Assembly (NCBI GenBank): GCA_964016885.1
Contig: OZ024741.1
Location: 279,620,001 to 279,684,000, forward strand
Source: Eledone cirrhosa
Taxonomy: Eukaryota
Reading direction: 5' to 3'
Length of the DNA: 64,000 nucleotides
Position 1 is the first letter of the stretch. Every line of letters starts with the position of its first letter. The notes under the pieces are model-generated. The model was not told the DNA's origin, searched no databases, and worked only from the letters and a program-made list of their open reading frames with translations. Shown here in pieces: positions 684-61,000 of this stretch. The translations under genes and the position numbers were made by a program.

Positions 684-1205
684 AACTTTGAAACAATTGT
701 CGACTACTTTCTCCTACCACTGGAGCAAAAGGGTGACATAGTCATCTAGAAAACACACATGGTGTCATGAGGATGTTTGCTTGCAAACGAGTCGAATATT
801 AATATTATAATATCATTCACTCACGAATACATTTAGCTATCCACCATGTTAGAGCAGAAACAAATTTGGTTTATAATTTTTGGCAAAGCCGGACGTAGAG
901 TCACTTGGTATGCAAATTGGGCTAATCAGCTGATGTACACCTTTGAGAATACTATGTATTCTCAGGTGCCCCAGGAGGTAGCAACGACGAGAGAATACAT
1001 AAGTCTTGATAAGGGGCAATAATTCCGGAACAATTGTCGACTACTTTCTGCTACAGCTGGAGCAAAAGGATGACGTCAGTCATCTAGAAAACACACATGG
1101 TGTTATGAGGCTGTTTGCTTGAAAACGAACCAAATATTAATATTATTATTCACTCACAAATACATTTAAGTATCCACCATGTTAGAGCAAAAACAAATTG
1201 TTTTT
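684..1205 (+). repeat. Tandem ~337-bp unit (1.5 copies) carrying a hammerhead motif; Penelope pseudo-LTR/retrozyme-like
   Basis: 690-871 and 1027-1204 are diverged direct repeats, both beginning G(A/G)AACAATTGTCGACT. The second is preceded by AGTC-TTGATAA-GGGG-caataa-TTCC. Confidence 0.7.
1002..1042 (+). ncRNA. Variant/degenerate minimal type I hammerhead ribozyme (U3-A8 core; GAAA mutated to GGAA)
   Basis: Stem I AGTC(1002-1005)/GACT(1039-1042), core TTGATAA, stem II GGGG/TTCC, then GGAA, palindromic CAATTG and a GTC cleavage triplet. Confidence 0.55.
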
Positions 1206-1209
1206 ATTT

Positions 1210-2290
1210 ATATACACACGCATATATACCTATACAAATATACACACATGTAGACACACATATATATATATATATATATACATATATGTAAACACATGCA
1301 CATATATGTACACATATATACATACACATACGTACATATATATATACATATATATACATACATATACGTACATATATATATACATATATATACATACATA
1401 CGTACATATATATATACATATATATACATACATACGTACATATATATATACATATATATACATACATACACATATAGGTACACATATATACATACACATA
1501 CGTACATATATATACATACATATACATACATACACACATATATGTACACATATATACATACACATACGTACACATATATACATACACATACGTACATATA
1601 TATATATACACATACACATAATATACATACATACACATATCTATATACATACATACACATATCTATATACATACACATATATACATACATACACATATAT
1701 ATATACATACATACACATATATATATACATACATACACATATATATACACATACATACACATATATATACATACATACACATACATATATATATACATAC
1801 ACATACATATATATATACATACACATACATATATATATACATACACATACATATATATATACATACATACACATACATATATATATACATACATACACAT
1901 ACATATATATATACATACATACACATACATATATATATACATACATACATATATATATACATACATACACATACATATATATATACATACATACATATAT
2001 ACATACATACATATATATATACATACATACACATACATATACATACATACATACACATATACATACACATACACACACACATATATATACATACATACAC
2101 ATATACATACATACACACATATATATACACATATATATATATATACATACATACACATACACACATATATATACATACATACATACACATACGTACATAT
2201 ATATATACATACACATATACATACATATATATATACATACACATATACATACACATATATATACACATATATAGACACATATATATACAC
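1210..2290. repeat. Compound (AT)n/(AC)n/(ATAC)n microsatellite
   Basis: Low-complexity tract; source of the spurious YIHT/MYVC ORFs. Confidence 0.95.
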
Positions 2291-2394
2291 ATCAATGATA
2301 GGTGAGATGCATAACGTTGAGTGCTTTCAAATTGTTACATCATTTACTTCGAGGAAAGACCAATTTACCCAGTGGTGAACCACCAAATTTATGC

Positions 2395-3208
2395 GCATAT
2401 ATACACATATATATATACATGCGTGCATACATATACACACAAATATAAACACATATATACATATACAAATATATATATATATATACATATATATATACAT
2501 ATACACATCTATATGCATATCTAATATATAAATATACACACATCTATATGCATCTATATATACACACATCTATATGCATATATATATATATATATACACA
2601 CATCTATATGCATATATATATATATATACACACATCTATATGCATATATATATATATACACACACATCTATATGCATATACACATCTATATGCATATATA
2701 TATACATATAGACATCTATATGCATATATATATACATATACACATCTATATGCATATATATATATACATATACACATCTATATGCATATATATATATACA
2801 TATACACATCTATATGCATATATATATATACATATACACATCTATATGCATATATATATATATACATATACACATCTATATGCATATATATATACACATC
2901 TATATGCATATATATATATATACATATACACATCTATATGCATATATATATATACATATACACATCTATATGTATGTATATATATATATATATACACATC
3001 TATATGCATATATATATACACATCTATATGCATATATATATATATACATATACACATCTATATGCATATATATATATACATATACACATCTATATGTATG
3101 TATATATATATATATACACATCTATATGTATGTATATATATGTATATATATATATATACATACACATCTATATGCATATATATATATATACATATACACA
3201 TCTATATG

Positions 3209-3242
<34 letters not shown>

Positions 3243-3651
3243 TCTATATGCATATATATATACACATCTATATGCATATATATATACATATACACATCAT
3301 CTATATGTATATATATATATACACACATCATCTATATGTATATATATATACACATCTATATGTATATATATATATATATATATACACACACATCATCTAT
3401 ATATATATATATACACATCTATATGTATATATATACACATCTATATGCATATATATATATACATATACACATCATCTATATGTAAATATACATATATATA
3501 TACATACATGGAAAAAATGAAATTTCATTTCTCACTCTTAGTACGGCTGATACATACTTATATATACATACAGATATACATCTATATGCATATATATATA
3601 TATACATAATCTATATGCATATATATATACACATATACATCATCTATATGC

Positions 3652-3684
<33 letters not shown>

Positions 3685-3776
3685 CATCATCTATATGCAT
3701 ATATATATATATACACACATATACATCATCTATATGCATATATATATATATACACACATATACATCATCTATATGC

Positions 3777-3807
<31 letters not shown>

Positions 3808-3819
3808 TCATCTATATGC

Positions 3820-3850
<31 letters not shown>

Positions 3851-5339
3851 TCATCTATATGCATATATATATACACACACACATATACATCATCTATATG
3901 CATATATATATATATACACATATACATTATCTATATGCATATATATATATATATACACAAATACATTATCTATATGCATATATATATATATATATACACA
4001 TATACATCATCTATAAGCATATATATATACATACATAATCTATAAGCATATATATATATATACATATACATCATCTATAAGCATATATATATACATAATC
4101 TATATGCATATATATATACATATACATCATCTATATGCATATATATATACATAATCTATATGCATATATATATATATACATATACATCATCTATATGCAT
4201 ATATATATATACATATACATCTATATGCATATATATATATACATATACATCATCTATATGCATATATATATATACATATACATCTATATGCATATATATA
4301 TATACATATACATCTATATGCATATATATATATACATATACATCTATATGCATATATATATATACATATACATCTATATGCATATATATATATACATATA
4401 CATCTATATGCATATATATATATATACATATACATCTATATGCATATATATATATACATCATCTATATGCATATATATATATATACACATATACATCATC
4501 TATATGCATATGTATATATACACATATACATCATCTATATGCATATATATACACATATACATCATCTATAAGCATATATATATACACATATACATCATCT
4601 ATAAGCATATATATATACACATATACATCATCTATAAGCATATATATATATACATATACATCATCTATAAGCATATATATATATACATCATCTATAAGCA
4701 TATATATATATACATATACATCATCTATAAGCATATATATACATATACATCATCTATAAGCATATATATATATATACATATACATCATCTATAAGCATAT
4801 ATATATATACATATACATCATCTATAAGCATATATATACATATACATATACATCATCTATAAGCATATATATATATATACATATACATCTGTATGCATAT
4901 ATATATATATACATATACATCTATATGCATATATATATATATACATATACATCTATATGCATATATATATACATATACATCTATATGCATATATATATAT
5001 ATACATATACATCATCTATATGCATATATATATATATACATATACATCATCTATATGCATATATATATATACATATACATCATCTATATGCATATATATA
5101 TATATACATATACATCTATATGCATATATATATACATATACATCTATATGCATATATATATATACATCATCTATATGCATATATATATATATACATATAC
5201 ATCATCTATATTCATATATATATATACATATACATCATCTATATGCATATATATATATACATCATCTATATGCATATATATATATACATATACATCATCT
5301 ATATGCATATATATATATACATATACATCATCTATATGC

Positions 5340-5372
<33 letters not shown>

Positions 5373-5560
5373 TCATCTATATGCATATATATATATATAT
5401 ACACATATACATCATCTATATGCATATATATATATATACATATACACATCTATATGCAAATATATATATATACACATATACATACATGGAAAAAATGAAA
5501 TTTCATTTCTCACTGTTAGTACGGCTGATACATACTTATATATACATACAGATATATTCA
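2395..5560. repeat. Microsatellite-derived minisatellite (unit ~CATCTATATGCA(TA)nCATATA(CA)) with a duplicated ~75-bp unique island
   Basis: Dozens of ~28-36 bp units. The island ATGGAAAAAATGAAATTTCATTTCTCACT(C/G)TTAGTACGGCTGATACATACTT occurs at ~3508 and ~5486. Confidence 0.9.
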
Positions 5561-5819: not shown

Positions 5820-5855
5820 CTTCGGCTTATATAGCCACCTTCGTAAAGAGTTCAT
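5820..5855 (-). CDS. ZFYVE28: First coding exon of lateral signaling target 2 / ZFYVE28 homolog (remaining exons outside the window, to the left)
   Basis: The minus strand reads ATG AAC TCT TTA CGA AGG TGG CTA TAT AAG CCG AAG|GTAAGT = MNSLRRWLYKPK, followed by a perfect phase-0 donor. This matches the conserved LST2 N-terminus (M..FRKWLYKPK) recalled from family knowledge. Confidence 0.8.
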
Positions 5856-6379: not shown

Positions 6380-6620
6380 GACATGCACAAGGAGCGACGA
6401 GCCGTGATGGCTCGGGCATGCGTATTGCATCGGTGAACACCTACCGCGCTGACGTCACTTCCGCTCTGTCTTGTACTTCGCTCTCCTGTTCCATATCCTC
6501 ACGTGCCAATTACTGCAGACATCTCTCTCCACGTGAGGGAGATTCTAAGAACGGCGATTGTCTTCACAGTAAAATCACAACATAATTCACTAATATCATC
6601 GATGGCGGGGTACCTTTATA
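6380..6620. promoter_or_regulatory. CpG-enriched proximal promoter (likely of ZFYVE28, possibly bidirectional)
   Basis: TGACGTCA (CRE, 6450-6457) overlaps ACTTCCG (ETS, 6457-6463). Also GCATGCG (NRF1-like, 6416), CACGTG at 6500 and 6530, CCAAT at 6506 and GATGGCG (YY1-like) at 6601. Local CpG enrichment ~600 bp upstream of the first coding exon. Confidence 0.6.
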
Positions 6621-8600: not shown

Positions 8601-8906
8601 CTAGAGGGCAGCTGCTGAGAGCGTGGGGGGGGGGGTGCAGTAGGGCTGTAGTGGTGTTAGGGAGAGCTGTTAGTGAGCTGTGGTGGAAGTATACATAAAT
8701 ATTCTTTATCTAACATTAATATTTTTTTTAAATAATAATAGAATAGAGTTATAATTTAGCTTCGAACATAGCTGTATACAAATATGTATTTGAATTTCGT
8801 ATTTCTAAAGAAATACGGTATAAATAAACATTTAGAAAGCCGTAGCTATGCAAAAACACTGGCAGCTAACGCCCTCCAACGGTGTCTAACAGAAGCATGG
8901 GGGACA

Positions 8907-8950
8907 ATCGTCGATGTATTTCGAACTGAATTGGTTCTCGTCAGGACGAT
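8907..8950 (-). ncRNA. Minimal type I hammerhead ribozyme
   Basis: Minus strand: ATCGTC-CTGACGA-GAAC-caattca-GTTC-GAAA-TACA-TC-GACGAT. Perfect 6-bp stem I, 4-bp stem II, complete CUGANGA/GAAA core and AUC cleavage triplet. Confidence 0.8.
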
Positions 8951-9165
8951 CTCTCTCGCTCTTTCAACTGTTGGACTTTGAAAACAGGCGAGAATATCTA
9001 GTTTTCTTGTCAGTGGAAATGAGGTGATTAATCTTATTTGCATATGAAGCTGAATAAGTTGGCTCAACTTGTAATAGAATTAGAATTTAGCTTCGAACAT
9101 AGCTGTACACAAATATGTATTTGAATTTCATATTTCTAAAGAAATACTGTATGTTTATAAGAGAG

Positions 9166-9209
9166 ATCATCCTGACGAGAACGAGTTCAGTTCGAAATGC
9201 ATCGACAAT
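9166..9209 (+). ncRNA. Minimal type I hammerhead ribozyme (stem I partly decayed)
   Basis: ATCATC-CTGACGA-GAAC-gagttca-GTTC-GAAA-TGCA-TC-GACAAT. Intact core, palindromic TGCA in stem III, two mismatches in stem I. Confidence 0.7.
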
Positions 9210-9548
9210 TGGTGCCCTTGCTTCTGCTGGACACCGCTAGGTGGAGTTAGCTGCTAGTGTTTTGCATAGCTATGGCTTTCTAAATGTAGGGCCAAAATTA
9301 AGTTCTTTTGAGGCCCTGATTACTTAGAAAATTATGGTCGGTGTGTGTAAATATAAAATCTGCAAAAACAAAACGAGGTGGATTTTAAATGTCATGAACA
9401 TCAGTGAGAAGATAGTTTTCTGGCACCCCACACAGTTTGTTATCTACAAATGTGAAGACACTATATCCACCTAGACGGGGTTTGGTTTAATCAATTTTGG
9501 GCCCCTATATATAAAGTCTGAAACAAAAATTTTTTTTAGAATATCAAA

Positions 9549-10425: not shown

Positions 10426-12114
10426 CATATATATACACACACACACATATATAATTTAATGAACCCCTGTGGCCTAGTTTCTTTCATGTAACTTGATAGT
10501 TCACTTGAGATGAATCTAATTTTCAGGCTCTTGAATAACAAGTAACAATTCCGCTCCATCCTCTTGCTAATCTTCTTTGGGTTGGTTTCAATTCCTCCCC
10601 AAATTATGTTTATATCGGCATACCTAGAAATATCTTGGTTTTGCTGAGGTAACTATTAATCTGCACTAAATACATATATTTTAATAAATTGGTGCAACAC
10701 ACACACATGGACAAACATACACATGCATACACACATAAACAAACATACATGCACACACATAAACAAATACACATGCGCACATTCACAAATACACATGCGC
10801 ACATACACAAACACACATGCGTATATAAACAAACACAAACGCATGCATACGCACACATGAACAAACATACTCACACGCACTAGCTCTGTTGCAACTTGTT
10901 GATGTTCCCTTTTCTGATTTCTTCCAGATAGCAGATTATCAGAAGTTAAGGCCCAAAACACTTGCATGAGGGAGCGTTTCTTCTCTGAAGACCTTCTATT
11001 TGGCTCTCTTGAGAGTTTCTTACCACTTAGTACTTATACTTTATCCCACTGAACACTCATTCCAACAATTTGAATTTAAATTATTGCCCCGCCTTCCTCC
11101 ATTACTCTCTTCTTACCTCCTAGATGTCCCCGTATTCTACTATTGTCACGATATCACCAATCAATGAGGTCACATTTACATGGTCACTCCACCTGCAAAA
11201 TATAGCATAAGATCATATTGGAAAATAATATGATATATTATAAAGTCTGCAAGAAAAAATGTCTTTAGAATATCAAATACTCTCGGGTCTCAATATTGAG
11301 ACCCCCAACCCATCCTATTTATTTTATAACATATGGATTTCTTATAATGTTCTTTTTTTTTGTCATGTATGTTTTTTAATTGCAGGGATGCTACCATTTA
11401 AAATAAAATTTAGCTGGAGATAGAGTAACAAAATTTAATAAACGGGAGGGTTGGAATAAGAGGGGTGGAGGGGATCTGAAAAATTAATGTCCAGGGGAAG
11501 GAGACAATTATTCTGAGAGCAATCCTAGAGATACATTTGCAGAACATCCCCCCTCCGCACACACACGCAATGCCTTGCTTATTGTACTAGCTTTGTCAAA
11601 TAAAAGTAATCATGGAAATTTGTGTGGAGTGACAGTTTATCTTTTGCAAACATAACCTACAGCAGATGAACTCCAGACATGAAACATTTAAATGAAAGAA
11701 AGACTACATGGAAGAATTACGTGACTAAAACAGGTGCTTTTCTACTTGAAGCTGTTACATAGGCATGAGAGACTTATGCATTGGCAAAGCCATAGGGTCT
11801 TTCCTTGTGATCTCCAAAGAACAGCTGGAGACAGCCTCACTGATAAGTGGAGTGAGACCTTCTACATCAAGCAAGGAATAACATGGCACAAAGTGTATTG
11901 TTTTTAAAATTGAGGATGGGATGAAGAGAAAAGTTAGGTGCATCACACAGCAGCCTATAGATTGTTCCCATAGTATTTGGTATGGAAAACATAAGGGCTA
12001 CTTTCTAACACAGTTCTCTACTTCTTGTTTATAAGGTTAACTCTTTCATTACTATATTTCTTATATGATACATTGTATTTTAATTAATTAATGTAGAATT
12101 TGGAGGGATACAAG

Positions 12115-14957
12115 ATACATCTGTTTAACTCCTACGTCAGAAGCATCGACCCTGACTTCATCACAGTTATGGAAAGCTGGGCACATTCCTTACTCTGTGA
12201 TGGGGTTTTCAGCATTACTGGGTACAACCTTTTCCGCAAGGACCGCATTAATGCCCGTGGTGTGATGGTCTACGTTCGTTCAAACTTTTCGATAATTCCT
12301 TGCGTTGATTTGAACGAATCACAAGAAGTTTTTTTTTGTGACATACGTATGACCATGTCAACACTTCTGCTTGGTGTTGTTTATTGCCCCCCAAACTACC
12401 ATCAGGACACACAGCTTTGCGATATCCTCAGCTGCTGCTGCCAGGAAAACAGCCACTTATGTGTTTATTGCAGGTGACTTCAATCATCCTGAGTTCGATT
12501 GGGAAACATTTCGTTGGCCACAAAGTGTAAACGATTTCCTTGAGCTAGTGCTGAACTCAAACTGGTCACAAGTAGTCACCTCTCCAACAAGAGGTGACAA
12601 CACTTTGGACCTGATCTTCACCACTACTCCTGAAGTGATTATCAGTTGTACTACTGAGGAACCTCTAGGCGACTCTGATCATGCTATGATCATTGCCAAT
12701 CTGGCTCTTGCGGGCAGCAATAAAAACCAGAACCATCTCCAATCTGCTTGCTTTGATTGGAAGAAAGCAGATTGGAACTTGTACTGCACTGAGCTACAGC
12801 GCCCAAACTGGCATGAGTTCTATAACTCTGGAGATGTGAACACTATACTCCAGAGCATCCTGGACTCAATATGGATAGCGTGTGCAGCAAAAGTGCAATT
12901 TGGGAAACTTCAGCGGTCCGACTTGCCAGGAAAGAACATCGGAACGCTGAACGGGAATATAAACTGCATAAATCAGATGCCAACAGAAGAAAGCGGAATA
13001 AATCTTCTAACCATCTCAAGCAAGTGACAAAGAAGGCAGTGCTTGAATTTGAACAGTGCATAGCAACCAATCCTGACAGTAAGGTGTTCTGGAAATATGT
13101 TCATTCAAAGCAGAGACCTCACTCTCCAGTTGGTCCTCTTCGCAATCCCCACACAAGGCAGATCACTGACGATCCCAAAGAATGCGCAGAACTCATTGCT
13201 GAGTGCTATGCATGCATTTTTACTGTTGAAAACCAGAATGTACCATCTCCACCATCTCTAACATCAAATTCCATAAGAACTATGGAATTTACACCTGCAA
13301 TGTTGCAACGTCACCTTAAGAATAAGTGCAACTATGCCTCCCCTGGTCTTGATGGTGTTACATACCTGCTTCTCAAACATGGCAGGTACTTCCTTTTGCA
13401 CCAGCTTTCTTTCTTCTTTCAATACTGTCTCAACAATGGTGCTACTCCGCAGCAGTGGAAAACTGCCAGTGTCATTCCCCTGTTCAAAAAGGGTGACCGC
13501 ACGTCACCTGTCAACTATCGTCCAGTCAGTCTTACTAGCTGTATTGCCAAACTAATGGAATCCTGTGTCAGAGAAACACTTTGGAACTTCTGGAGCTCTC
13601 ACAGCCTCATCCGGCCCTCGCAGTTTGGATTTAACCCTAACTCCAGCTGCTGTGATCAGCTTATTGAGTTCCTTGAAGACATTACCCGGATCACTGACAG
13701 CGGCTCATGGGTGGATGTTGTTTACCTTGACTTTGCTAAGGCTTTTAATTCTGTGCCACACAAAAGACTTATGGCAAAACTCTCTGCAATGGGTGTGAGG
13801 GATGATCTTTTTAACTGGTTGAAATCCTTCATTCTCAGCCGAAAAGAGGTAGTCACGGTTCTAGGACAGCATTCTTCACCATATAAGATGTCATCTGGTG
13901 TACCACAGGGATCTGTTCTTGGTCCCTTTTTGTTTGTGGCATATATTAATGACATAGATGCCAACTTAAAGAATGCCACGGTACTGAACTATGCAGATGA
14001 CATCAAGCTGTACCTTGAAATCAAAAGGACGGATCCTGAAATCTACAACTCCTTCCTACAATCAGACCTGGACACAATGCAGCAATGGATCACAGACTGG
14101 CAACTGAAGCTGGCTGTGGACAAGTGTACAACCATGCATTTTGGGAGGAAAAATCCAGCGTCCACATACTCCCTCCACAACACTGATATCAAGAAGTCCT
14201 CTTGTGAACGTGACCTGGGCATTACTGTCAGCAACGATTTGCGTTGGACAAAGCATGTCTCTAAGATTGTCAAGAAGGCCGAGGGTGTCTTGGCATCACT
14301 CAGCCACACCTTTGTTAGCCGCTCTCCAGCCATCTATTTAAAGCTGTATACAGCTATGGTACGACCACACTTGGAATTCGCATCATCAGTCTGGAACCCC
14401 TATCTTGTTCAGAACATTGACCTCCTGGAAACTGTTCAGAGATGTGCAACCAAGCGCATACCCTCCATCAAATACGTACCATACTCTGAACGCCTTGCTT
14501 CCCTAGGCATGGATTCATTGAAGCTCCGACATCTGACAATGGACTTGGTAAACACCCACAAAGTTATTAACCATCTCGCCAACAACAACCCTGAGCACCT
14601 TTTTGATCTCCATGTGTCTAACACATGTGGACATGCCTACAAAATCAGAAAACAGCACAGCTCCCATGACTTTCGGAAACATTTTTCACACTCAGAGTTG
14701 CTGAAGAATGGAACAAACTGCCTGCGTCAGTTGTTAGCTGCCGAGACACTGCATCCTTTAAAACCCTCATGCTTCCCGAAATACGCCAAAACTACACCTG
14801 ATGTACCCCTTCCATACACATGCACACATGTGTATATCATGACTCATGCACTGTTCATTTTCCTGACGTTTGTACATTACCCTATGTACTATGCATACAC
14901 TTTTTGATGAGTTGTAGTGCACCTGAGCACTGTACACAATATTTCATTATTATTATT
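12115..14957 (+). mobile_element. CR1-clade LINE, 5'-truncated ORF2 (AP endonuclease + RT), frameshifted
   Basis: EN motifs ITVMESW, GYNLFRKDR, GDFNHP, PTRGDNTLDL and SDH. RT motifs NYRPVSLT, YLDFAKAF, GVPQGSVLGP, YADD and ERDLG. CR1-type C-terminus (VRPHLEF, YSERL). (TTA)n tail at 14946-14957. Confidence 0.92.
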
Positions 14958-19309: not shown

Positions 19310-19990
19310 GGTAGTTACAAGTGCTTACGGGATATTTGACCAAAGATGTGTGTTTGTGACCCATGTACGTCAATACTCATCCTTTTTTCCATTCTGAGGG
19401 TTTTAAAAAAAATCCCAACTAACAGACTTATTTTATTTGCTGCCATTTACAATGTTGTTGGAGGTTCTTGTACTACAGGATTTACTTTTGCACTACTTAT
19501 CACATGTATGATTTCCTTCAGCACTTGATTGTTTCTCCACATGTATCTACCCTTTGCTAGTGCTACTCTTTAGGAGCTCAGAATGTGTTCCACTGTCTGT
19601 CTAGCCTGGCAGAGTGGGCACTCAGGGTTATCTGACTTGCCCCACTTGACTAAATTTGTATTCGAAGGTAGGAGATCATAGACAGATCTGAGGAGAAAAC
19701 TGATTCTAAGAGGTGTCATATGCCACAAGTCATTCTAACTGAGACACTTCTGGAGTGCACTTTCCCATGTCGTCCACTGGCCCTACTGGCTCTACGGAAC
19801 TGCCTTCCAGAGTCTTCTGGGATCCTCTTCCTTCTTTACCTCCTGTAAAGTCAGTCCTCTCCTCATCTTTCCCCTTGTCGCTGACCACCGTTCCATCTTT
19901 GTTACACCCAGTCTTTGCCTAATAGCCTGAGTACGTCCCATTATATCTCTGATCGTAAGGCTTTCTTTTGCTGTATCTACAGACTCTTGG
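19310..19990 (-). mobile_element. Hero-clade (RLE-type) non-LTR retrotransposon fragment
   Basis: The minus strand translates GQWTTWE..DLWHMTPLRISFLLRSVYDLLPSNTNLVKWGKSDNPECPLCQARQTVEHILSS..ALAKGRYMWRNNQVL, which is the Hero-type linker plus CCHC knuckle. Confidence 0.75.
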
Positions 19991-20024
19991 ACCTATGTGC
20001 GTGTGTGTATATATATATATATAT

Positions 20025-21328
20025 TCTAAATTAGAAGAAGACATTATCTTTCATGCTAGAAAAACTTTACTCTTTTCTAATGAAAATATTTGGGTTAAAA
20101 AGTCAAACCCTGAAAACTCTTTTGATGTTGCAATGGGTTCATATGACAGTGCGGATGTGTGTGACTTAGTAGGATTATTCCTTCTCCATACCCTCAAAGA
20201 GAAATTTCTTTCCCATAATATCGGTTTATACCGTGATGACGGTTTGGCAGTTTCTCATACCACCAATGGCCATAACCTTGATAAATTCCGTAAAGATTTA
20301 ATCAATACTTTTGCTAATCTTAACCTTAAAATTACTATAGATACGAACCTTACCAATGCTAACTTTCTTGACATTAATCTGGATCTACTTACCGCCTCTT
20401 TTAAACCTTATCATAAACCTAATGAAAATCTTAGGTATATACACAAAGAGTCTTGCCATCCCCCTATAGTTTTTAATAATCTTATTCCTAACATTAGCCG
20501 TAGGATTTCTACCTTATCTTCGTCTATAGACATGTTTAATAAAGCCGCCCCTTATTATAATAAAGCCCTTAAAAACAGCGGTTTTACAGAACATATTTAT
20601 TATTTACCTACTCCCCCCCCCCTAAAACTAACCACAATAACAGGAAAAGGAAAATTATTTGGTTTACACCCCCCTTCTCTCTAACTGTCAAAACTAATGT
20701 AGGAAGGAAATTCCTTGAACTCTTAGATAAACATTTTCCTGCTAATCATAGATATTATAAGATATTTAATAGGAATGTAGTTAAGATCAGTTACTCTTGT
20801 TGCCCATCTATGAAGTCCAAGATTACTAATTCAAATCATACGAGAACAAATCCAGGATGCAATTGCAGGAAGCCGGATGAATGCCCATTGCAGGGCAAAT
20901 GTAACACCAAATCTGTTGTTTATGAGGCTAAAGTAACACCTTTAATCAACAACCAGCCAGCCAGGAGTGAGTGATATGTCGGCATGACCCAGGACAGGTT
21001 TAAAACCAGGTTTTATGCACATGTCGCTTCTTTTAAGCACTCCGATAAACGAACAACAACGGCCCTCGCAAGTAAGGTGTTGGAATTCAAGGATAAAAAC
21101 ATCCTGTACTCTATCGATTGGTCTATTTTAGACCATTCGAGGGAGTACCAAAGGGGCACAAAGAATTGTTCTTTGTGTACCACAGAAAAATATAGGATTT
21201 TGCTAAACTTGAAAGCCACTTCTGCTTGCCTGAACTCAAAGACCGAGATCTTCAGATGTTGTCCTCATCTGAAATCACATCTGATCTGTAACTGGATTGA
21301 CACTCCTATGATAACTCAACCACCTTGA
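20025..21328 (+). mobile_element. Penelope-like element, Naiad type: RT (5'-truncated) + CCCC Zn finger + GIY-YIG endonuclease
   Basis: ARKTLLF..WVKK..FDVAMGSYDSADVCDLVG, GLYRDDGL, FLDI and HPP. After a frameshift at the poly-C (~20613-20622): RKRKIIWFTPPF..KISYSC, CNCRKPDECPLQGKC, VVYEAKV..*YVGMT..FKTRF..H, CSLCTTEK..LN. In-frame TGA at 20972-20974. Confidence 0.88.
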
Positions 21329-51151: not shown

Positions 51152-52069
51152 CATATATATATATATATCGTTTATTGTCCAAACAAACAGTAGGATGCTA
51201 GCTAACTGTATTTCATCTTACATTCACTGAACATACAAATAAATTAGTGCTTTTTGTTGTAATGTTTGGACTTCCATATTAAATCATGTTTAGATTCTCT
51301 ATCAACCACCATACACACATAAAAGTGAAGTGAATACGAAAATGTCAATACAATTTCTAGTAATGAGACAGTGTAGAAATAAAATATGTAAAGGGATATT
51401 TTCTTTCTCTCTTTTACTATACTTGTAACACAGATTCAAACACAAAGCTCTTAACTTGAAAAAAGGGAAAAAGTGTCTGACACGAATAAGGTGTCTTTGT
51501 TTTCGCGTTTTGCATGGCTGCAAGTATTCAACAAAGTCTGAGTGCTTTCAAGATTAAAACGATTTCTGAATCTCTTTTAGAGTTCCTGGTTACTGTAGCA
51601 CTACAAAAACAAAAACAAAAAATAGTAATTATATGAAACTGAACTAAAGAGAAAGAGTGAAGTCGATTGAATCTGGCCGTTTGGGAAGAATAGATGTTAT
51701 GAAAGGAAATGTGATGTAGGGAAGCAACAACAAATATGCTTGTCTGGTTAAAAAAGAAAAAAATTCTAAGTATATTTCTTTAGCCATTTATGTTTCAGAA
51801 GCACAACGTGTTATCAATAGAACGATACTGTGCATTGATTTCTATTAATCGAGTATAGCATAATTTATTGATTGTGAGATCGATAAAATCACACAATGAT
51901 GTGCAATGCTCTTTCGAGTTTCAAACCAGGTCGAAATATTATAATGAGCACACAATTGAGAAGATCAATTTAAGTCTTTTCTTTTATTATTATTGTTTTC
52001 AGAATTTTAATTTGATTTTATATTTTATATTTGAGCTTTCTGATTGATCAAACAGAAATGATTAAATAA

Positions 52070-55000
52070 AGTTTGGATCTAAAACAGAAATCAGAGGGAA
52101 TTATGATCTAAAACAGAAATAAGAGAGAGTTAGGATCTAAAACAGAAATAAAAGAGAGTTATGAGCTAAAACAGAAATAAGATAGAGTTGGTATCTAGAA
52201 CGGAAATCAGAGAGAGTTAGGATGTAAAACAGAAATCAGAGAGAGTTAGGATGTAAAATAGAAATCAGAGAGAGTTAGGATGTAAAATAGAAATAAGAGA
52301 GAGTTAGGATGTAAAACAGAAATCAGAGATAGTTAGGATGTAAAATAGAAATAAGAGAGAGTTAGGATGTAAAACAGAAATAAGAGAGAGAAAGTTAGGA
52401 TCTAGAACAGAAATCAGAGAGAGTTAGGATGTAAAACAGAAATCAGAGAGAGTTAGGATGTAAAACAGAAATAAGAGAGAGTTAGGATCTAGAACAGAAA
52501 TCAGAGACAGTTAGGATGTAAAATAGAAATCAGAGAGAGTTAGGATGTAAAACAGAAATCAGAGAGAGTTAGGATGTAAAACAGAAATCAGAGAGAGTTA
52601 GGATGTAAACAGAAATAAGAGAGACTTAGGATGTAAAATAGAAATAAGAGAGAGAAAGTTAGGATCTAGAACAGAAATCAGAGAGAGTTAGGATGTAAAA
52701 CAGAAATCAGAGAGAGTTAGGATGTAAAACAGAAATCAGAAAGAGTTAGGATGTACAGAAATAAGAGAGAGAAAGTTAGGATCTAGAACAGAAATCAGAG
52801 AGAGTTAGGATGTAAAACAGAAATCAGAGAGAGTGAGGATGTAAAATAGAAATCAGAGAGAGTTAGGATGTAGAACAGAAATCAGAGAGAGTTAGGATGT
52901 AAAATAGAAATAAGAGAGAGAAAGTTAGGATCTAGAATAGAAATCAGAGAGAGTTAGGATGTAAAACAGAAATCAGAGAGAGTTAGGATGTAAAATAGAA
53001 ATCAGAGAGAGTTAGGATGTAGAACAGAAATCAGAGAGAGTTAGGATGTAAAACAGAAATAAGAGAGAGTTAGGATGTAAAATAGAAATAAGAGAGAGTT
53101 AGGATGTAAAACAGAAATCAGAGATAGTTAGGATGTAAAATAGAAATAAGAGAGAGTTAGGATGTAAAACAGAAATAAGAGAGAGAAAGTTAGGATCTAG
53201 AACAGAAATCAGAGAGAGTTAGGATGTAAAACAGAAATCAGAGAGAGTTAGGATGTAAAACAGAAATAAGAGAGAGTTAGGATCTAGAACAGAAATCAGA
53301 GACAGTTAGGATGTAAAATAGAAATCAGAGAGAGTTAGGATGTAAAACAGAAATCAGAGAGAGTTAGGATGTAAAACAGAAATCAGAGAGAGTTAGGATG
53401 TAAACAGAAATAAGAGAGAGTTAGGATGTAAAATAGAAATAAGAGAGAGAAAGTTAGGATCTAGAACAGAAATCAGAAAGAGTTAGGATGTAAAACAGAA
53501 ATCAGAGAGAGTTAGGATGTAAAACAGAAATCAGAGAGAGTTAGGATGTAAAACAGAAATAAGAGAGAGAAAGTTAGGATCTAGAACAGAAATCAGAGAG
53601 AGTTAGGATGTAAAACAGAAATCAGAGAGAGTGAGGATGTAAAATAGAAATCTGAGAGAGTTAGGATGTAGAACAGAAATCAGAGAGAGTTAGGATGTAA
53701 AACAGAAATAAGAGAGAGTTAGGATGTAAAACAGAAATCAGAGAGAGAGAGTTAGGATGTAAAACAGAAATCAGAGAGAGTTAGGATGTAAAACAGAAAT
53801 AAGAGAGAGTTAGGATGTAAAACAGAAATCAGAGAGAGTTAGGATGTAAAATAGAAATCAGAGAGAGTTAGGATGTAAAATAGAAATCAGAGAGAGTTAG
53901 GATGTAAAATAGAAATCAGAGAGAGTTAGGATGTAGAACAGAAATCAGAGAGAGTTAGGATGTAAAATAGAAATCAGAGAGAGTTAGGATGTAAAATAGA
54001 AATCAGAGAGAGTTAGGATGTAAAATTGAAATCAGAGAGAGTTAGGATGTAGAACAGAAATCGGAGAGAGTTAGGATGTAAAATAGAAATCAGAGAGAGT
54101 TAGGATGTAAAATAGAAATCAGAGAGAGTTAGGATGTAGAACAGAAATCAGAGAGAGTTAGGATGTAAAATAGAAATCAGAGAGAGTTAGGATGTAAAAT
54201 AGAAATCAGAGAGAGTTAGGATGTAAAATAGAAATCAGAGAGAGTTAGGATGTAAAAGAGAAATAAGAGAGAGTTAGGATGTAAAATAGAAATCAGAGAG
54301 AGTTAGGACGTAAAATAGAAATAAGAGAGAGTTAGGATGTAAAATAGAAATCAGAGAGAGTTAGGATGTAGAACAGAAATCAGAGAGAGTTAGGATGTAA
54401 AATAGAAATCAGAGAGAGTTAGGATGTAAAATAGAAATCAGAGAGAGTTAGGATGTAAAACAGAAATAAGAGAGAGAAAGTTAGGATCTAGAACAGAAAT
54501 CAGAGAGAGTTAGGATGTAAAACAGAAATCAGAGAGAGTTAGGATGTAAAACAGAAATCAGAGAGAGTTAGGATCTAGAATAGAAATCAGAGAGAGTTAG
54601 GGTGTAAAACAGAAATCAGAGAGAGTTAGGATGTAAAACAGAAATAAGAGAGAGAAAGTTAGGATCTAGAACAGAAATCAGAGAGAGTTAGGATGTAAAA
54701 CAGAAATCAGAGAGAGTTAGGATGTAAAACAGAAATCAGAGAGAGTTAGGATGTAAAACAGAAATCAGAGAGAGTTAGGATGTAAAACAGAAATAAGAGA
54801 GAGTTAGGATGTAAAATAGAAATAAGAGAGAGAAAGTTAGGATCTAGAACAGAAATCAGAGAGAGTTAGGATGTAAAACAGAAATCAGAGAGAGTTAGGA
54901 TGTAAAACAGAAATCAGAGAGAGTTAGGATGTAAAACAGAAATAAGAGAGAGAAAGTTAGGATCTAGAATAGAAATCAGAGAGAGTTAGGATGTAAAACA

Positions 55001-58000
55001 GAAATCAGAGAGAGTTAGGATGTAAAATAGAAATCAGAGAGAGTTAGGATGTAGAACAGAAATCAGAGAGAGTTAGGATGTAAAACAGAATAAGAGAGAG
55101 TTAGGATGTAAAACAGAAATCAGAGAGAGAGAGTTAGGATGTAAAACAGAAATCAGAGAGAGTTAGGATGTAAAACAGAAATAAGAGAGAGTTAGGATGT
55201 AAAACAGAAATCAGAGAGAGTTAGGATGTAAAATTGAAATCAGAGAGAGTTAGGATGTAGAACAGAAATCAGAGAGAGTTAGGATGTAAAATAGAAATCA
55301 GAGAGAGTTAGGATGTAAAATAGAAATCAGAGAGAGTTAGGATGTAGAACAGAAATCAGAGAGAGTTAGGATGTAAAATAGAAATCAGAGAGAGTTAGGA
55401 TGTAAAATAGAAATCAGAGAGAGTTAGGATGTAAAATAGAAATCAGAGAGAGTTAGGATGTAGAACAGAAATCAGAGAGAGTTAGGATGTAAAATAGAAA
55501 TAAGAGAGAGAAAGTTAGGATCTAGAATAGAAATCAGAGAGAGTTAGGATGTAAAACAGAAATCAGAGAGAGTTAGGATGTAAAATAGAAATCAGAGAGA
55601 GTTAGGATGTAGAACAGAAATCAGAGAGAGTTAGGATGTAAAACAGAAATAAGAGAGAGTTAGGATGTAAAATAGAAATAAGAGAGAGTTAGGATGTAAA
55701 ACAGAAATCAGAGATAGTTAGGATGTAAAATAGAAATAAGAGAGAGTTAGGATGTAAAACAGAAATAAGAGAGAGAAAGTTAGGATCTAGAACAGAAATC
55801 AGAGAGAGTTAGGATGTAAAACAGAAATCAGAGAGAGTTAGGATGTAAAACAGAAATAAGAGAGAGTTAGGATCTAGAACAGAAATCAGAGACAGTTAGG
55901 ATGTAAAATAGAAATCAGAGAGAGTTAGGATGTAAAACAGAAATCAGAGAGAGTTAGGATGTAAAACAGAAATCAGAGAGAGTTAGGATGTAAACAGAAA
56001 TAAGAGAGAGTTAGGATGTAAAATAGAAATAAGAGAGAGAAAGTTAGGATCTAGAACAGAAATCAGAAAGAGTTAGGATGTAAAACAGAAATCAGAGAGA
56101 GTTAGGATGTAAAACAGAAATCAGAGAGAGTTAGGATGTAAAACAGAAATAAGAGAGAGAAAGTTAGGATCTAGAACAGAAATCAGAGAGAGTTAGGATG
56201 TAAAACAGAAATCAGAGAGAGTGAGGATGTAAAATAGAAATCTGAGAGAGTTAGGATGTAGAACAGAAATCAGAGAGAGTTAGGATGTAAAACAGAAATA
56301 AGAGAGAGTTAGGATGTAAAACAGAAATCAGAGAGAGAGAGTTAGGATGTAAAACAGAAATCAGAGAGAGTTAGGATGTAAAACAGAAATAAGAGAGAGT
56401 TAGGATGTAAAACAGAAATCAGAGAGAGTTAGGATGTAAAATAGAAATCAGAGAGAGTTAGGATGTAAAATAGAAATCAGAGAGAGTTAGGATGTAAAAT
56501 AGAAATCAGAGAGAGTTAGGATGTAGAACAGAAATCAGAGAGAGTTAGGATGTAAAATAGAAATCAGAGAGAGTTAGGATGTAAAATAGAAATCAGAGAG
56601 AGTTAGGATGTAAAATTGAAATCAGAGAGAGTTAGGATGTAGAACAGAAATCGGAGAGAGTTAGGATGTAAAATAGAAATCAGAGAGAGTTAGGATGTAA
56701 AATAGAAATCAGAGAGAGTTAGGATGTAGAACAGAAATCAGAGAGAGTTAGGATGTAAAATAGAAATCAGAGAGAGTTAGGATGTAAAATAGAAATCAGA
56801 GAGAGTTAGGATGTAAAATAGAAATCAGAGAGAGTTAGGATGTAAAAGAGAAATAAGAGAGAGTTAGGATGTAAAATAGAAATCAGAGAGAGTTAGGACG
56901 TAAAATAGAAATAAGAGAGAGTTAGGATGTAAAATAGAAATCAGAGAGAGTTAGGATGTAGAACAGAAATCAGAGAGAGTTAGGATGTAAAATAGAAATC
57001 AGAGAGAGTTAGGATGTAAAATAGAAATCAGAGAGAGTTAGGATGTAAAACAGAAATAAGAGAGAGAAAGTTAGGATCTAGAACAGAAATCAGAGAGAGT
57101 TAGGATGTAAAACAGAAATCAGAGAGAGTTAGGATGTAAAACAGAAATCAGAGAGAGTTAGGATCTAGAATAGAAATCAGAGAGAGTTAGGGTGTAAAAC
57201 AGAAATCAGAGAGAGTTAGGATGTAAAACAGAAATAAGAGAGAGAAAGTTAGGATCTAGAACAGAAATCAGAGAGAGTTAGGATGTAAAACAGAAATCAG
57301 AGAGAGTTAGGATGTAAAACAGAAATAAGAGAGAGTTAGGATCTAGAACAGAAATCAGAGACAGTTAGGATGTAAAATAGAAATCAGAGAGAGTTAGGAT
57401 GTAAAACAGAAATCAGAGAGAGTTAGGATGTAAAACAGAAATCAGAGAGAGTTAGGATGTAAAACAGAAATAAGAGAGAGTTAGGATGTAAAATAGAAAT
57501 AAGAGAGAGAAAGTTAGGATCTAGAACAGAAATCAGAGAGAGTTAGGATGTAAAACAGAAATCAGAGAGAGTTAGGATGTAAAACAGAAATCAGAGAGAG
57601 TTAGGATGTAAAACAGAAATAAGAGAGAGAAAGTTAGGATCTAGAATAGAAATCAGAGAGAGTTAGGATGTAAAACAGAAATCAGAGAGAGTTAGGATGT
57701 AAAATAGAAATCAGAGAGAGTTAGGATGTAGAACAGAAATCAGAGAGAGTTAGGATGTAAAACAGAATAAGAGAGAGTTAGGATGTAAAACAGAAATCAG
57801 AGAGAGAGAGTTAGGATGTAAAACAGAAATCAGAGAGAGTTAGGATGTAAAACAGAAATAAGAGAGAGTTAGGATGTAAAACAGAAATCAGAGAGAGTTA
57901 GGATGTAAAATTGAAATCAGAGAGAGTTAGGATGTAGAACAGAAATCAGAGAGAGTTAGGATGTAAAATAGAAATCAGAGAGAGTTAGGATGTAAAATAG

Positions 58001-61000
58001 AAATCAGAGAGAGTTAGGATGTAGAACAGAAATCAGAGAGAGTTAGGATGTAAAATAGAAATCAGAGAGAGTTAGGATGTAAAATAGAAATCAGAGAGAG
58101 TTAGGATGTAAAATAGAAATCAGAGAGAGTTAGGATGTAAAAGAGAAATAAGAGAGAGTTAGGATGTAAAATAGAAATCAGAGAGAGTTAGGACGTAAAA
58201 TAGAAATAAGAGAGAGTTAGGATGTAAAATAGAAATCAGAGAGAGTTAGGATGTAGAACAGAAATCAGAGAGAGTTAGGATGTAAAATAGAAATCAGAGA
58301 GAGTTAGGATGTAAAATAGAAATCAGAGAGAGTTAGGATGTAAAACAGAAATAAGAGAGAGAAAGTTAGGATCTAGAACAGAAATCAGAGAGAGTTAGGA
58401 TGTAAAACAGAAATCAGAGAGAGTTAGGATGTAAAACAGAAATCAGAGAGAGTTAGGATGTAAAACAGAAATAAGAGAGAGTTAGGATGTAAAACAGAAA
58501 TCAGAGAGAGTTAGGATCTAGAATAGAAATCAGAGAGAGTTAGGGTGTAAAACAGAAATCAGAGAGAGTTAGGATGTAAAACAGAAATCAGAGAGAGTTA
58601 GGATGTAAAACAGAAATAAGAGAGAGTTAGGATCTAGAACAGAAATCAGAGACAGTTAGGATGTAAAATAGAAATCAGAGAGAGTTAGGATGTAAAACAG
58701 AAATCAGAGAGAGTTAGGATGTAAAACAGAAATCAGAGAGAGTTAGGATGTAAAACAGAAATAAGAGAGAGTTAGGATGTAAAATAGAAATAAGAGAGAG
58801 AAAGTTAGGATCTAGAACAGAAATCAGAGAGAGTTAGGATGTAAAACAGAAATCAGAGAGAGTTAGGATGTAAAACAGAAATCAGAGAGAGTTAGGATGT
58901 AAAACAGAAATAAGAGAGAGAAAGTTAGGATCTAGAATAGAAATCAGAGAGAGTTAGGATGTAAAACAGAAATCAGAGAGAGTTAGGATGTAAAATAGAA
59001 ATCAGAGAGAGTTAGGATGTAGAACAGAAATCAGAGAGAGTTAGGATGTAGAACAGAATAAGAGAGAGTTAGGATGTAAAACAGAAATCAGAGAGAGAGA
59101 GTTAGGATGTAAAACAGAAATCAGAGAGAGTTAGGATGTAAAACAGAAATAAGAGAGAGTTAGGATGTAAAACAGAAATCAGAGAGAGTTAGGATGTAAA
59201 ATAGAAATCAGAGAGAGTTAGGATGTAAAATAGAAATCAGAGAGAGTTAGGATGTAAAATAGAAATCAGAGAGAGTTAGGATGTAGAACAGAAATCAGAG
59301 AGAGTTAGGATGTAAAATAGAAATAAGAGAGAGTTAGGATGTAAAACAGAAATCAGAGATAGTTAGGATGTAAAATAGAAATAAGAGAGAGTTAGGATGT
59401 AAAACAGAAATAAGAGAGAGAAAGTTAGGATCTAGAACAGAGAGAGTTAGGATGTAAAACAGAAATCAGAGAGAGTTAGGATGTAAAACAGAAATCAGAG
59501 AGAGTTAGGATGTAAAACAGAAATAAGAGAGAGTTAGGATCTAGAACAGAAATCAGAGACAGTTAGGATGTAAAATAGAAATCAGAGAGAGTTAGGATGT
59601 AAAACAGAAATCAGAGAGAGTTAGGATGTAAAACAGAAATCAGAGAGAGTTAGGATGTAAACAGAAATAGGAGAGAGTTAGGATGTAAAATAGAAATAAG
59701 AGAGAGAAAGTTAGGATCTAGAACAGAAATCAGAGAGAGTTAGGATGTAAAACAGAAATCAGAGAGAGTTAGGATGTAAAACAGAAATCAGAGAGAGTTA
59801 GGATGTAAAACAGAAATAAGAGAGAGAAAGTTAGGATCTAGAACAGAAATCAGAGAGAGTTAGGATGTAAAACAGAAATCAGAGAGAGTGAGGATGTAAA
59901 ATAGAAATCAGAGAGAGTTAGGATGTAGAACAGAAATCAGAGAGAGTTAGGATGTAAAACAGAAATAAGAGAGAGTTAGGATGTAAAACAGAAATCAGAG
60001 AGAGAGAGTTAGGATGTAAAACAGAAATCAGAGAGAGTTAGGATGTAAAACAGAAATAAGAGAGAGTTAGGATGTAAAACAGAAATCAGAGAGAGTTAGG
60101 ATGTAAAATAGAAATCAGAGAGAGTTAGGATGTAAAATAGAAATCAGAGAGAGTTAGGATGTAAAATAGAAATCAGAGAGAGTTAGGATGTAGAACAGAA
60201 ATCAGAGAGAGTTAGGATGTAAAATAGAAATCAGAGAGAGTTAGGATGTAAAATAGAAATCAGAGAGAGTTAGGATGTAAAATTGAAATCAGAGAGAGTT
60301 AGGATGTAGAACAGAAATCGGAGAGAGTTAGGATGTAAAATAGAAATCAGAGAGAGTTAGGATGTAAAATAGAAATCAGAGAGAGTTAGGATGTAGAACA
60401 GAAATCAGAGAGAGTTAGGATGTAAAATAGAAATCAGAGAGAGTTAGGATGTAAAATAGAAATCAGAGAGAGTTAGGATGTAAAATAGAAATCAGAGAGA
60501 GTTAGGATGTAAAAGAGAAATAAGAGAGAGTTAGGATGTAAAATAGAAATCAGAGAGAGTTAGGACGTAAAATAGAAATAAGAGAGAGTTAGGATGTAAA
60601 ATAGAAATCAGAGAGAGTTAGGATGTAAAATAGAAATCAGAGAGAGTTAGGATGTAAAACAGAAATAAGAGAGAGAAAGTTAGGATCTAGAACAGAAATC
60701 AGAGAGAGTTAGGATGTAAAACAGAAATCAGAGAGAGTTAGGATGTAAAACAGAAATCAGAGAGAGTTAGGATCTAGAATAGAAATCAGAGAGAGTTAGG
60801 GTGTAAAACAGAAATCAGAGAGAGTTAGGATGTAAAACAGAAATAAGAGAGAGAAAGTTAGGATCTAGAACAGAAATCAGAGAGAGTTAGGATGTAAAAC
60901 AGAAATCAGAGAGAGTTAGGATGTAAAACAGAAATAAGAGAGAGTTAGGATCTAGAACAGAAATCAGAGACAGTTAGGATGTAAAATAGAAATCAGAGAG

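What the first reader, a model, noticed from the sequence alone, without database searches (positions are those of the whole stretch)
8743..9286. Pair of opposing hammerhead ribozymes in a rearranged Penelope pseudo-LTR
Seen: two complete CUGACGA...GAAA...AUC cores in the arms of a ~128-bp inverted repeat, interleaved with an ~80-bp direct repeat (A-B'-C-A-B). The minus copy has a perfect ATCGTC/GACGAT stem I. Stem III is very short, and palindromic in the plus copy. Established: Penelope-like element pseudo-LTRs carry minimal type I hammerheads that act as dimers, and PLE insertions often have inverted partial pLTRs. Inference: transcripts crossing this locus in either direction, ~2-3 kb from the ZFYVE28 promoter, could self-cleave or fold into long dsRNA.
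Basis: partly seen in the sequence, partly recalled or inferred. Interest (0 to 1): 0.75.

Follow-up and report, generated by a model that had tools for sequence, protein, structure and literature searches.

The report
Decayed two-armed hammerhead retrozyme insertion
The two back-to-back hammerhead ribozyme motifs are real, but they are the two arms of one old, mutated insertion of an abundant 337-base non-coding repeat that was likely copied in by Penelope-type jumping-gene enzymes, and both motifs are predicted to be inactive at this site.

Summary
The repeats and both hammerhead cores are present as described. They form one insertion of a 337-nt, non-coding, circularly repeating unit with 3,623 first-look candidates in the genome. 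A 1.26-unit arm (8742-9160, minus) is fused head-to-head to a 5'-truncated inverted arm (9161-9287).

Across 81 loci the family shows Penelope-type anatomy: two fixed 3' ends about 35 nt apart, variable 5' ends, 37 head-to-head pairs (18 of 22 scorable pairs have one long and one short end) and microsatellite targets. Opposing hammerhead pairs recur (4 of 53 motif-selected loci) and are already reported for Penelope remnants.

The motif has canonical rather than minimal geometry, covaries between subfamilies, and no coding parent was found. It is better called a non-LTR retrozyme than a pseudo-LTR.

Here the plus copy has a broken stem I and the minus copy a broken stem-III palindrome. In a read-through transcript each is predicted to be paired to its antisense arm. 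Long dsRNA is plausible; self-cleavage is unlikely. No RNA data were available.

This scan has noted the same anatomy in other families of this and other genomes. Verdict: a new member of a known kind, low interest.

The parts
8742..9160 (-). Main arm: 1.26 laps of the 337-nt retrozyme unit (unit positions 249 to 336 of the next lap); 3' end at the family's long end
   Evidence: (92% to family consensus)
9161..9287 (+). Inverted, 5'-truncated second arm (unit positions 117-244), fused head-to-head with no gap; stops about 55 nt before the usual short 3' end
8906..8951 (-). Type I hammerhead, main arm: stems I and II intact, stem-III palindrome mutated at 8917; predicted cleavage after 8913
9165..9210 (+). 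Type I hammerhead, inverted arm: palindrome intact, stem I broken at 9169 and 9207 (both CpG-site G>A); predicted cleavage after 9203
8742..8821 (.). Direct repeat copy 1: the overlap of the two laps, not an LTR
9073..9152 (.). Direct repeat copy 2
8742..8775 (-). About 35-nt 'tail' between the family's short and long 3' ends
9287..9370 (+). Start of an unrelated diverged repeat (transposon-terminus-like) abutting the end of the inverted arm
5820..5855 (-). Neighbouring first coding exon of a probable ZFYVE28/Lst2 gene, transcribed away from the element (context only)

Best explanation
The locus is one old insertion of an abundant 337-nt non-coding hammerhead repeat (a non-LTR retrozyme) whose two head-to-head arms were likely written into the genome in a single event by a Penelope-type reverse transcriptase/endonuclease, and whose two ribozymes are now predicted to be inactive. 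Shown: unit length and circular permutation, high copy number, two fixed 3' ends, variable 5' ends, head-to-head arms sharing subfamily alleles, microsatellite targets, and the damaging substitutions. Inferred: master copies were transcribed as multimers, cut by hammerhead dimers and closed into 337-nt self-paired circles. A Penelope-type enzyme then nicked a (TA)n/(CA)n-type target and copied the RNA from two fixed start points about 140 and 175 nt downstream of the cleavage site, running through the cleavage/ligation site, one arm from each side of the break. The opposing hammerheads are a by-product of that geometry. After insertion the copy decayed neutrally.
For: Family size: 3,623 first-look candidates (40 scored) in the own genome. 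3' ends: 77 of 88 arms and 28 of 37 end in two narrow classes, unit positions 286-306 and 322-337, while 5' ends are spread. Pairs: head-to-head at 28 of 55 loci and 9 of 26, with no tail-to-tail pair flagged; 18 of 22 pairs with both ends classifiable have one long and one short end (p=0.002). This matches the inverted 5'-truncated copy and one-sided 30-40-bp tail of PLEs (PMC8557442, PMC3846280, passages). Targets: microsatellite within 20 nt of 47 of 77 canonical 3' ends vs 10.7% background. Template: 65 of 77 arms cross the cleavage site, only 2 start within 5 nt of it, and 39 of 88 exceed one unit, so it was a circle or an uncleaved multimer. One event: opposite arms share diagnostic alleles at 289 of 351 sites vs 48% between loci. 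Structure: consensus circle z=-6.2, 0 of 100 shuffles as stable; compensatory subfamily pairs 66-80 (GC 45, AU 26), 100-184 (AU 55, GC 16) and helix II 136-148 (AU 74, GU 9, GC 5). Decay: 4 of 38 hammerheads fully intact in loci not selected on the motif, and core substitutions 17/351 vs 715/12841 elsewhere. Silencing: stems I and II have probability about 0 in the whole-locus fold on both strands, with 0.91-0.93 mean pairing to sequence more than 150 nt away.
Against: No RNA, cleavage or circle has been observed for this family. No long tandem array was seen among 81 loci (longest arm 677 nt; 3 of 77 arms cross two cleavage sites), so this locus fails the 'two complete units' test of Li et al. 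2026. The mobilising PLE was not identified: two PLE families examined share no 3'-end sequence with the unit. The inverted arm here does not end at either canonical end and no displaced remainder was found in the window. Rare variants are mostly not shared between arms (24 of 531), so 'same RNA molecule' is not shown. The 5' ends cluster modestly at unit 185-210 (15 of 88 vs 6.8 expected), which is unexplained. Loci were picked by similarity or motif, not at random.
Confidence: 0.82

Rival explanations
1. The unit is the pseudo-LTR of an autonomous Penelope-like element, and the locus is a 5'-truncated stub of it.
For: The insertion anatomy is PLE-like. At L059 a PLE ORF is fused directly 3' of the unit. 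Li et al. 2026 (parts 1-3 of 5 read) link retrozymes to pLTRs.
Against: At L059 the junction falls inside the ORF, and 0 of 29 other copies of that ORF segment carry the unit. 44 single-arm 5' flanks share no junction sequence beyond simple repeats and one 32-nt match. Arms close on themselves around 337 nt (39 of 88 exceed a unit). tblastn with 5 peptides from three PLE families over 82 loci found no ORF running into the unit from its 5' side. The hammerhead geometry is canonical, unlike the minimal-type motif of the young Neptune-like family in this genome.
Confidence: 0.1
2. The opposing pair is a functional, co-opted device that cleaves or silences transcripts crossing the region upstream of ZFYVE28.
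For: Both catalytic cores are intact. The locus lies about 2.9 kb upstream of the ATG. A very stable hairpin is predicted: -254.9 and -232.6 kcal/mol vs shuffle means -129.8 and -107.3.
Against: The gene is transcribed away from the element. Each ribozyme has a structural lesion. The arms differ at 18 of 127 positions with no sign of maintained complementarity. Divergence is family-typical (about 7% non-CpG). Opposing pairs recur at 11 of 55 and 3 of 26 loci.
Confidence: 0.05
3. The inverted arm arose later by DNA-level rearrangement, or is an assembly artefact.
For: The arm has a non-canonical end next to another repeat. Contigs cover the inversion and right junctions with only 30 letters on one side, one short of the tool's bridging rule.
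Against: Head-to-head fusion is the family norm (37 of 81 loci). The arms share three diagnostic alleles yet differ at 18 sites, which indicates an old duplication rather than a mis-assembly.
Confidence: 0.03

Closest known systems
Metazoan non-LTR retrozymes (Cervera & de la Pena 2020, PMC7229834, parts 2-3 of 6 and passages read; mussel 350-390 bp, axolotl 330/350 bp)
   Same: Non-coding unit of 337 nt, 39% GC, one type I hammerhead with a short palindromic helix III, strongly self-paired predicted circle, thousands of candidate copies.
   Different: Seen here as dispersed 1-2-unit arms rather than long tandem arrays. Fixed dual 3' ends and inverted arms are not described in the parts read ('inverted' occurs 0 times in that main text). 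Expression and cleavage are untested.
EN+ Penelope-like elements (Craig et al. 2021, PMC8557442, passages; Arkhipova et al. 2013, PMC3846280, passages)
   Same: Partial tandems, adjacent inverted 5'-truncated copy in head-to-head orientation, 30-40-bp tail at one end only, microsatellite targeting.
   Different: No RT/GIY-YIG ORF is associated with this unit, and no parent was found.
Minimal hammerheads of PLE pLTRs (Cervera & de la Pena 2014, PMC4209133, parts 1-2 of 4 read)
   Same: Type I core needing a dimer. That paper already reports dual motifs about 100-700 bp apart on opposite strands in Schistosoma.
   Different: Minimal motifs have a long helix II (7-8 bp), a short helix I (4-5 bp) and an extra nucleotide before helix II. 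This one has a 4-bp helix II, a 7-bp helix I and no extra nucleotide, i.e. the canonical form.
Non-LTR retrozymes as non-autonomous PLE derivatives (Li, Clavereau, Pollet 2026, 10.64898/2026.07.22.740005, parts 1-3 of 5 read)
   Same: Same proposed dependence on PLE enzymes; solo copies are dispersed.
   Different: Their support is co-occurrence and pLTR phylogeny, mainly in vertebrates. Here the support is insertion anatomy, and no pLTR homologue was found.

Membership tests
Non-LTR retrozyme | Type I hammerhead in each repeat unit | tested here: met
   helix II covariation
Non-LTR retrozyme | Unit of about 170-400 nt, GC below 50%, non-coding | tested here: met
   337 nt, 39.5% GC, longest stop-to-stop frame 84 codons
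Non-LTR retrozyme | Tandem arrangement with two or more complete hammerhead units | tested here: inconclusive
   This locus has 1.26 units; 3 of 77 arms cross two cleavage sites; no long array among 81 loci, but only a small part of the family was sampled
Non-LTR retrozyme | Highly self-paired circular monomer | tested here: met
   Predicted only: consensus z=-6.2, window copy z=-1.9; compensatory pairs
Non-LTR retrozyme | Expression as linear and circular RNA; self-cleavage | not testable with these tools
   Needs RNA data and an in vitro assay
Non-LTR retrozyme | Absence of PBS/PPT; target-site duplication | not tested
   Not searched systematically; microsatellite targets obscure TSDs
Autonomous EN+ PLE pseudo-LTR | Repeat flanks an RT + GIY-YIG ORF | tested here: not met
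   only three PLE families were used as probes
Autonomous EN+ PLE pseudo-LTR | Inverted 5'-truncated copy, head-to-head | tested here: met
   37 of 81 loci
Autonomous EN+ PLE pseudo-LTR | 30-40-bp tail at one end only | tested here: met
   18 of 22 scorable pairs, p=0.002
PLE minimal hammerhead | Long helix II, short helix I, extra nucleotide 5' of helix II | tested here: not met
   4-bp helix II, 7-bp helix I, no extra nucleotide
Rfam hammerhead families | Covariance-model match | tested here: not met
   No match at E<=10; also none for a near-consensus copy, so the models do not see this family
Viroid-like RNA with a ribozyme in each polarity | Distinct ribozyme on the antisense strand of the monomer | tested here: not met
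   No CUGANGA on the plus strand of 8742-9160; the second motif is an inverted copy of the first

The most novel reading that the evidence does not exclude
The family's fossil record is direct genomic evidence that a circular ribozyme RNA is reverse-transcribed by Penelope-type machinery from two fixed internal start points, one from each side of a staggered break, running through the cleavage/ligation site. This would tie retrozyme circles to the unexplained PLE 'tail' and inverted arm, and give a 337-nt minimal substrate for testing PLE integration.
Probability: 0.45. Interest if true: 0.5.

Novelty: new member of a known kind. Interest (0 to 1): 0.25.

Why it matters
The locus itself is ordinary: a decayed copy, and opposite-strand hammerhead pairs are already in print. 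The family is a useful example because it joins retrozyme features (canonical hammerhead, self-paired 337-nt circle) with the Penelope integration footprint, a link that the papers read here propose but do not show by insertion anatomy. A full-text search for cephalopod + hammerhead ribozyme + retrozyme listed no paper describing cephalopod retrozymes (listings only, supplements not seen). Hundreds of such inverted insertions could be a source of long dsRNA, but that is untested.

Tried and rejected
Rfam scans: no hammerhead hit; uninformative, because a near-consensus copy also fails. Isolated folds of the two motifs were not better than shuffles (z 0.22 to 1.31, and -0.75). Parent search: the PLE ORF fused to the unit at L059 was rejected as parent (0 of 29 other copies carry the unit). 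The loci of that family (25) and of a young Neptune-like family (25) share no more than short AT-rich matches with the unit in the part that was displayed. The PLE remnant at window 19959-21328 has no copy of the unit. Pfam did not recognise the four PLE peptides scanned, so clade names are recalled from motifs. Expression: no RNA holder listed. Contigs X1-X3 are one sample and may be the assembly source; summed depth over the element is thousands of times that of the flank, but it is not a copy number. No displaced remainder of the inverted arm and no second terminus of the abutting repeat were found in the window. Pol III promoter: one B-box-like 9-mer, no A box, and a T5 run in the unit, so not pursued (box motifs recalled). 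CTCF-like motif (recalled pattern): 10 of 79 covered positions match, no sign of retention. ZFYVE28 exon 2 was not recognised within about 14 kb downstream of exon 1. No covariance model was built. Rows dropped before counts: duplicate loci L016, L037, L044, L054, L161, L164, L166, L170; the second copy in L015; L033 (internally re-duplicated; kept in the 53-locus denominator for opposing pairs); arms under 45 nt.

Full report
Observation. The layout A-B'-C-A-B is present: an 80-nt direct repeat at 8742-8821 / 9073-9152 (94%) and inverted arms at 8828-8956 / 9160-9287 (85% over 129 nt). Each arm has CUGACGA, a 4-bp helix II with a 7-nt loop, GAAA, a six-base stem-III segment and AUC. Predicted cleavage is after 8913 (minus) and 9203 (plus). 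A loose motif is not above chance in the window. The family motif is: 35 and 204 genome hits against 0 for reversed controls. Rfam finds no hammerhead here or in a near-consensus copy.

The family. The window lies in a 3.0-Gb animal genome; an octopus-type host is my inference from its repeats and is not tested. The element gives 3,623 first-look candidates, of which 40 were scored. Aligning 62 segments from 56 loci gave a 337-nt unit, 39.5% GC, with no long reading frame. In unit coordinates the locus is two arms: 8742-9160 on minus is 1.26 laps, so the 'direct repeat' is the lap overlap, and 9161-9287 on plus is unit 117-244, fused with no gap.

Insertion anatomy. 3' ends fall in two classes about 35 nt apart (77 of 88 arms; 28 of 37), while 5' ends are spread. 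Head-to-head pairs occur at 28 of 55 and 9 of 26 loci. Of 22 pairs with both ends classifiable, 18 have one long and one short end (p=0.002). Microsatellites follow 47 of 77 canonical ends against 10.7% background. These are the features described for Penelope-like elements: partial tandems, an adjacent inverted 5'-truncated copy, a one-sided 30-40-bp tail and microsatellite bias (PMC8557442 passages; PMC3846280 passages). A hammerhead in both arms was seen at 11 of 55 loci (10 of them in the set chosen by similarity to this locus) and 3 of 26 further loci, i.e. 4 of 53 motif-selected loci. Cervera and de la Pena 2014 already report dual motifs 100-700 bp apart on opposite strands (PMC4209133).

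Template. 65 of 77 arms run through the cleavage site, only 2 begin near it, and 39 of 88 exceed one unit. The template was therefore a circle or an uncleaved multimer; these data do not separate the two. Opposite arms share subfamily alleles at 82% of diagnostic sites against 48% between loci, and this locus's arms share three such alleles, which points to one event. Rare variants are seldom shared (24 of 531), so a single RNA molecule as source is not shown.

RNA structure. The consensus circle folds at z=-6.2, with the hammerhead at the tip of an extended rod; the window's copy has decayed to z=-1.9. The antisense strand folds as well (z=-8.1), so the fold does not by itself show which strand is the RNA. 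Subfamily differences include compensatory pairs at 66-80, 100-184 and in helix II. Each is probably one or a few events, but together they suggest selection on master RNAs. One diagnostic pair (221-312) is broken in 12 laps. The geometry (helix I 7 bp, helix II 4 bp, palindromic helix III) is the canonical type I form of retrozymes, not the minimal pLTR form (definitions from PMC4209133; retrozyme features from PMC7229834 parts 2-3).

No coding parent found. L059 has a PLE ORF fused 3' of the unit, but the junction is inside the ORF and none of 29 other copies has the unit. It is either a second insertion or a template switch. A very young Neptune-like family (150 of 150 scored hits at 100% identity) has its own, different hammerhead and ends in TA repeats. 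It shows that suitable enzymes exist here, not that it is the mobiliser. Forty-four single-arm 5' flanks share no junction sequence beyond simple repeats and one 32-nt match, and PLE peptide hits near family copies (L008, L036, L052, L150, L171) do not run into the unit from its 5' side. Only three PLE families were used as probes, so a divergent parent could be missed.

State of this copy. Non-CpG divergence is about 7%, the family median. The plus motif has lost two stem I pairs at CpG sites (9169, 9207) and part of the extended helix; the minus motif has lost the dimer palindrome (8917). In whole-locus folds of either strand, stems I and II have probability about 0 and the motif pairs with the far arm. 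Because the arms are head-to-head, the antisense arm is always transcribed first. In loci not selected on the motif, 4 of 38 hammerheads are fully intact and the core is not better kept than the rest. The inverted arm stops about 55 nt short of the usual short end, where another diverged repeat begins. Later truncation is likely, but two other arms end at 242-245, so an original end is possible.

Context. A minus-strand exon at 5855-5820 and a same-strand FYVE exon about 175 kb on support the ZFYVE28 assignment. The gene reads away from the element. Nothing here shows transcription of the element.

Mechanism and verdict. Most likely (0.82) this is a decayed, two-armed insertion of a non-LTR retrozyme made by Penelope-type machinery. 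The opposing ribozymes are a by-product and are predicted inactive. Earlier AI notes in this scan describe the same anatomy for other families in this and other genomes; they are unchecked leads and are not counted as support. Supplements of the cited papers were not read and may list similar families. New member of a known kind; interest 0.25.

Noticed in passing
window 19959-21328 (+): 5'-truncated, frameshifted Penelope-like element remnant (RT C-terminal part, Cys-rich linker, GIY-YIG-like end; motifs recalled), unrelated to the hammerhead unit.
   Followed up: partly
L119-L143, L036 (G000): Very young Neptune-like PLE family: 38,013 candidates, 150 of 150 scored at 100% protein identity, open frames up to about 1,380 aa, frequent tandem and head-to-head copies, own minimal-type hammerhead, two 3' ends in TA repeats.
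   Followed up: partly
L059/L061 1630-1640: Retrozyme arm lacking its normal 3' end fused to the middle of a 5'-truncated Penelope/Poseidon-like ORF on the same strand, with no displaced remainder within 8 kb; a possible template-switch chimera that would hint at a mobiliser.
   Followed up: partly
unit positions about 192-205 (window 8867-8880 and 9236-9249, approximate): The family consensus has a GC-rich stretch resembling the CTCF motif (recalled); 10 of 79 covered positions match a strict pattern. 5' truncations cluster here (15 of 88 vs 6.8 expected).
   Followed up: partly
family helix II: A recurrent variant with a U-U mismatch at the second pair of helix II (4 of 26 loci), recalling the U-U in axolotl HHR_Amex2 described in PMC7229834.
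   Followed up: no
window 6450-6465: CRE-like TGACGTCA next to an ETS-like CTTCCG (motif names recalled): probable core promoter of the minus-strand gene, possibly bidirectional.
   Followed up: no
window 12097-14907 (+): LINE remnant with endonuclease- and RT-like frames, the last 693 codons long (CR1/L2-like by recalled motifs).
   Followed up: no
window about 52000-64000 and 1000-5470: Long purine-skewed simple-repeat tract (GC skew about +0.68, AT skew about +0.45) and a TA-rich minisatellite array.
   Followed up: no
L015/L016 (G000 C28): The whole two-armed insertion is repeated at 1,375-bp spacing with about 100% identity: recent tandem duplication or an assembly repeat.
   Followed up: no
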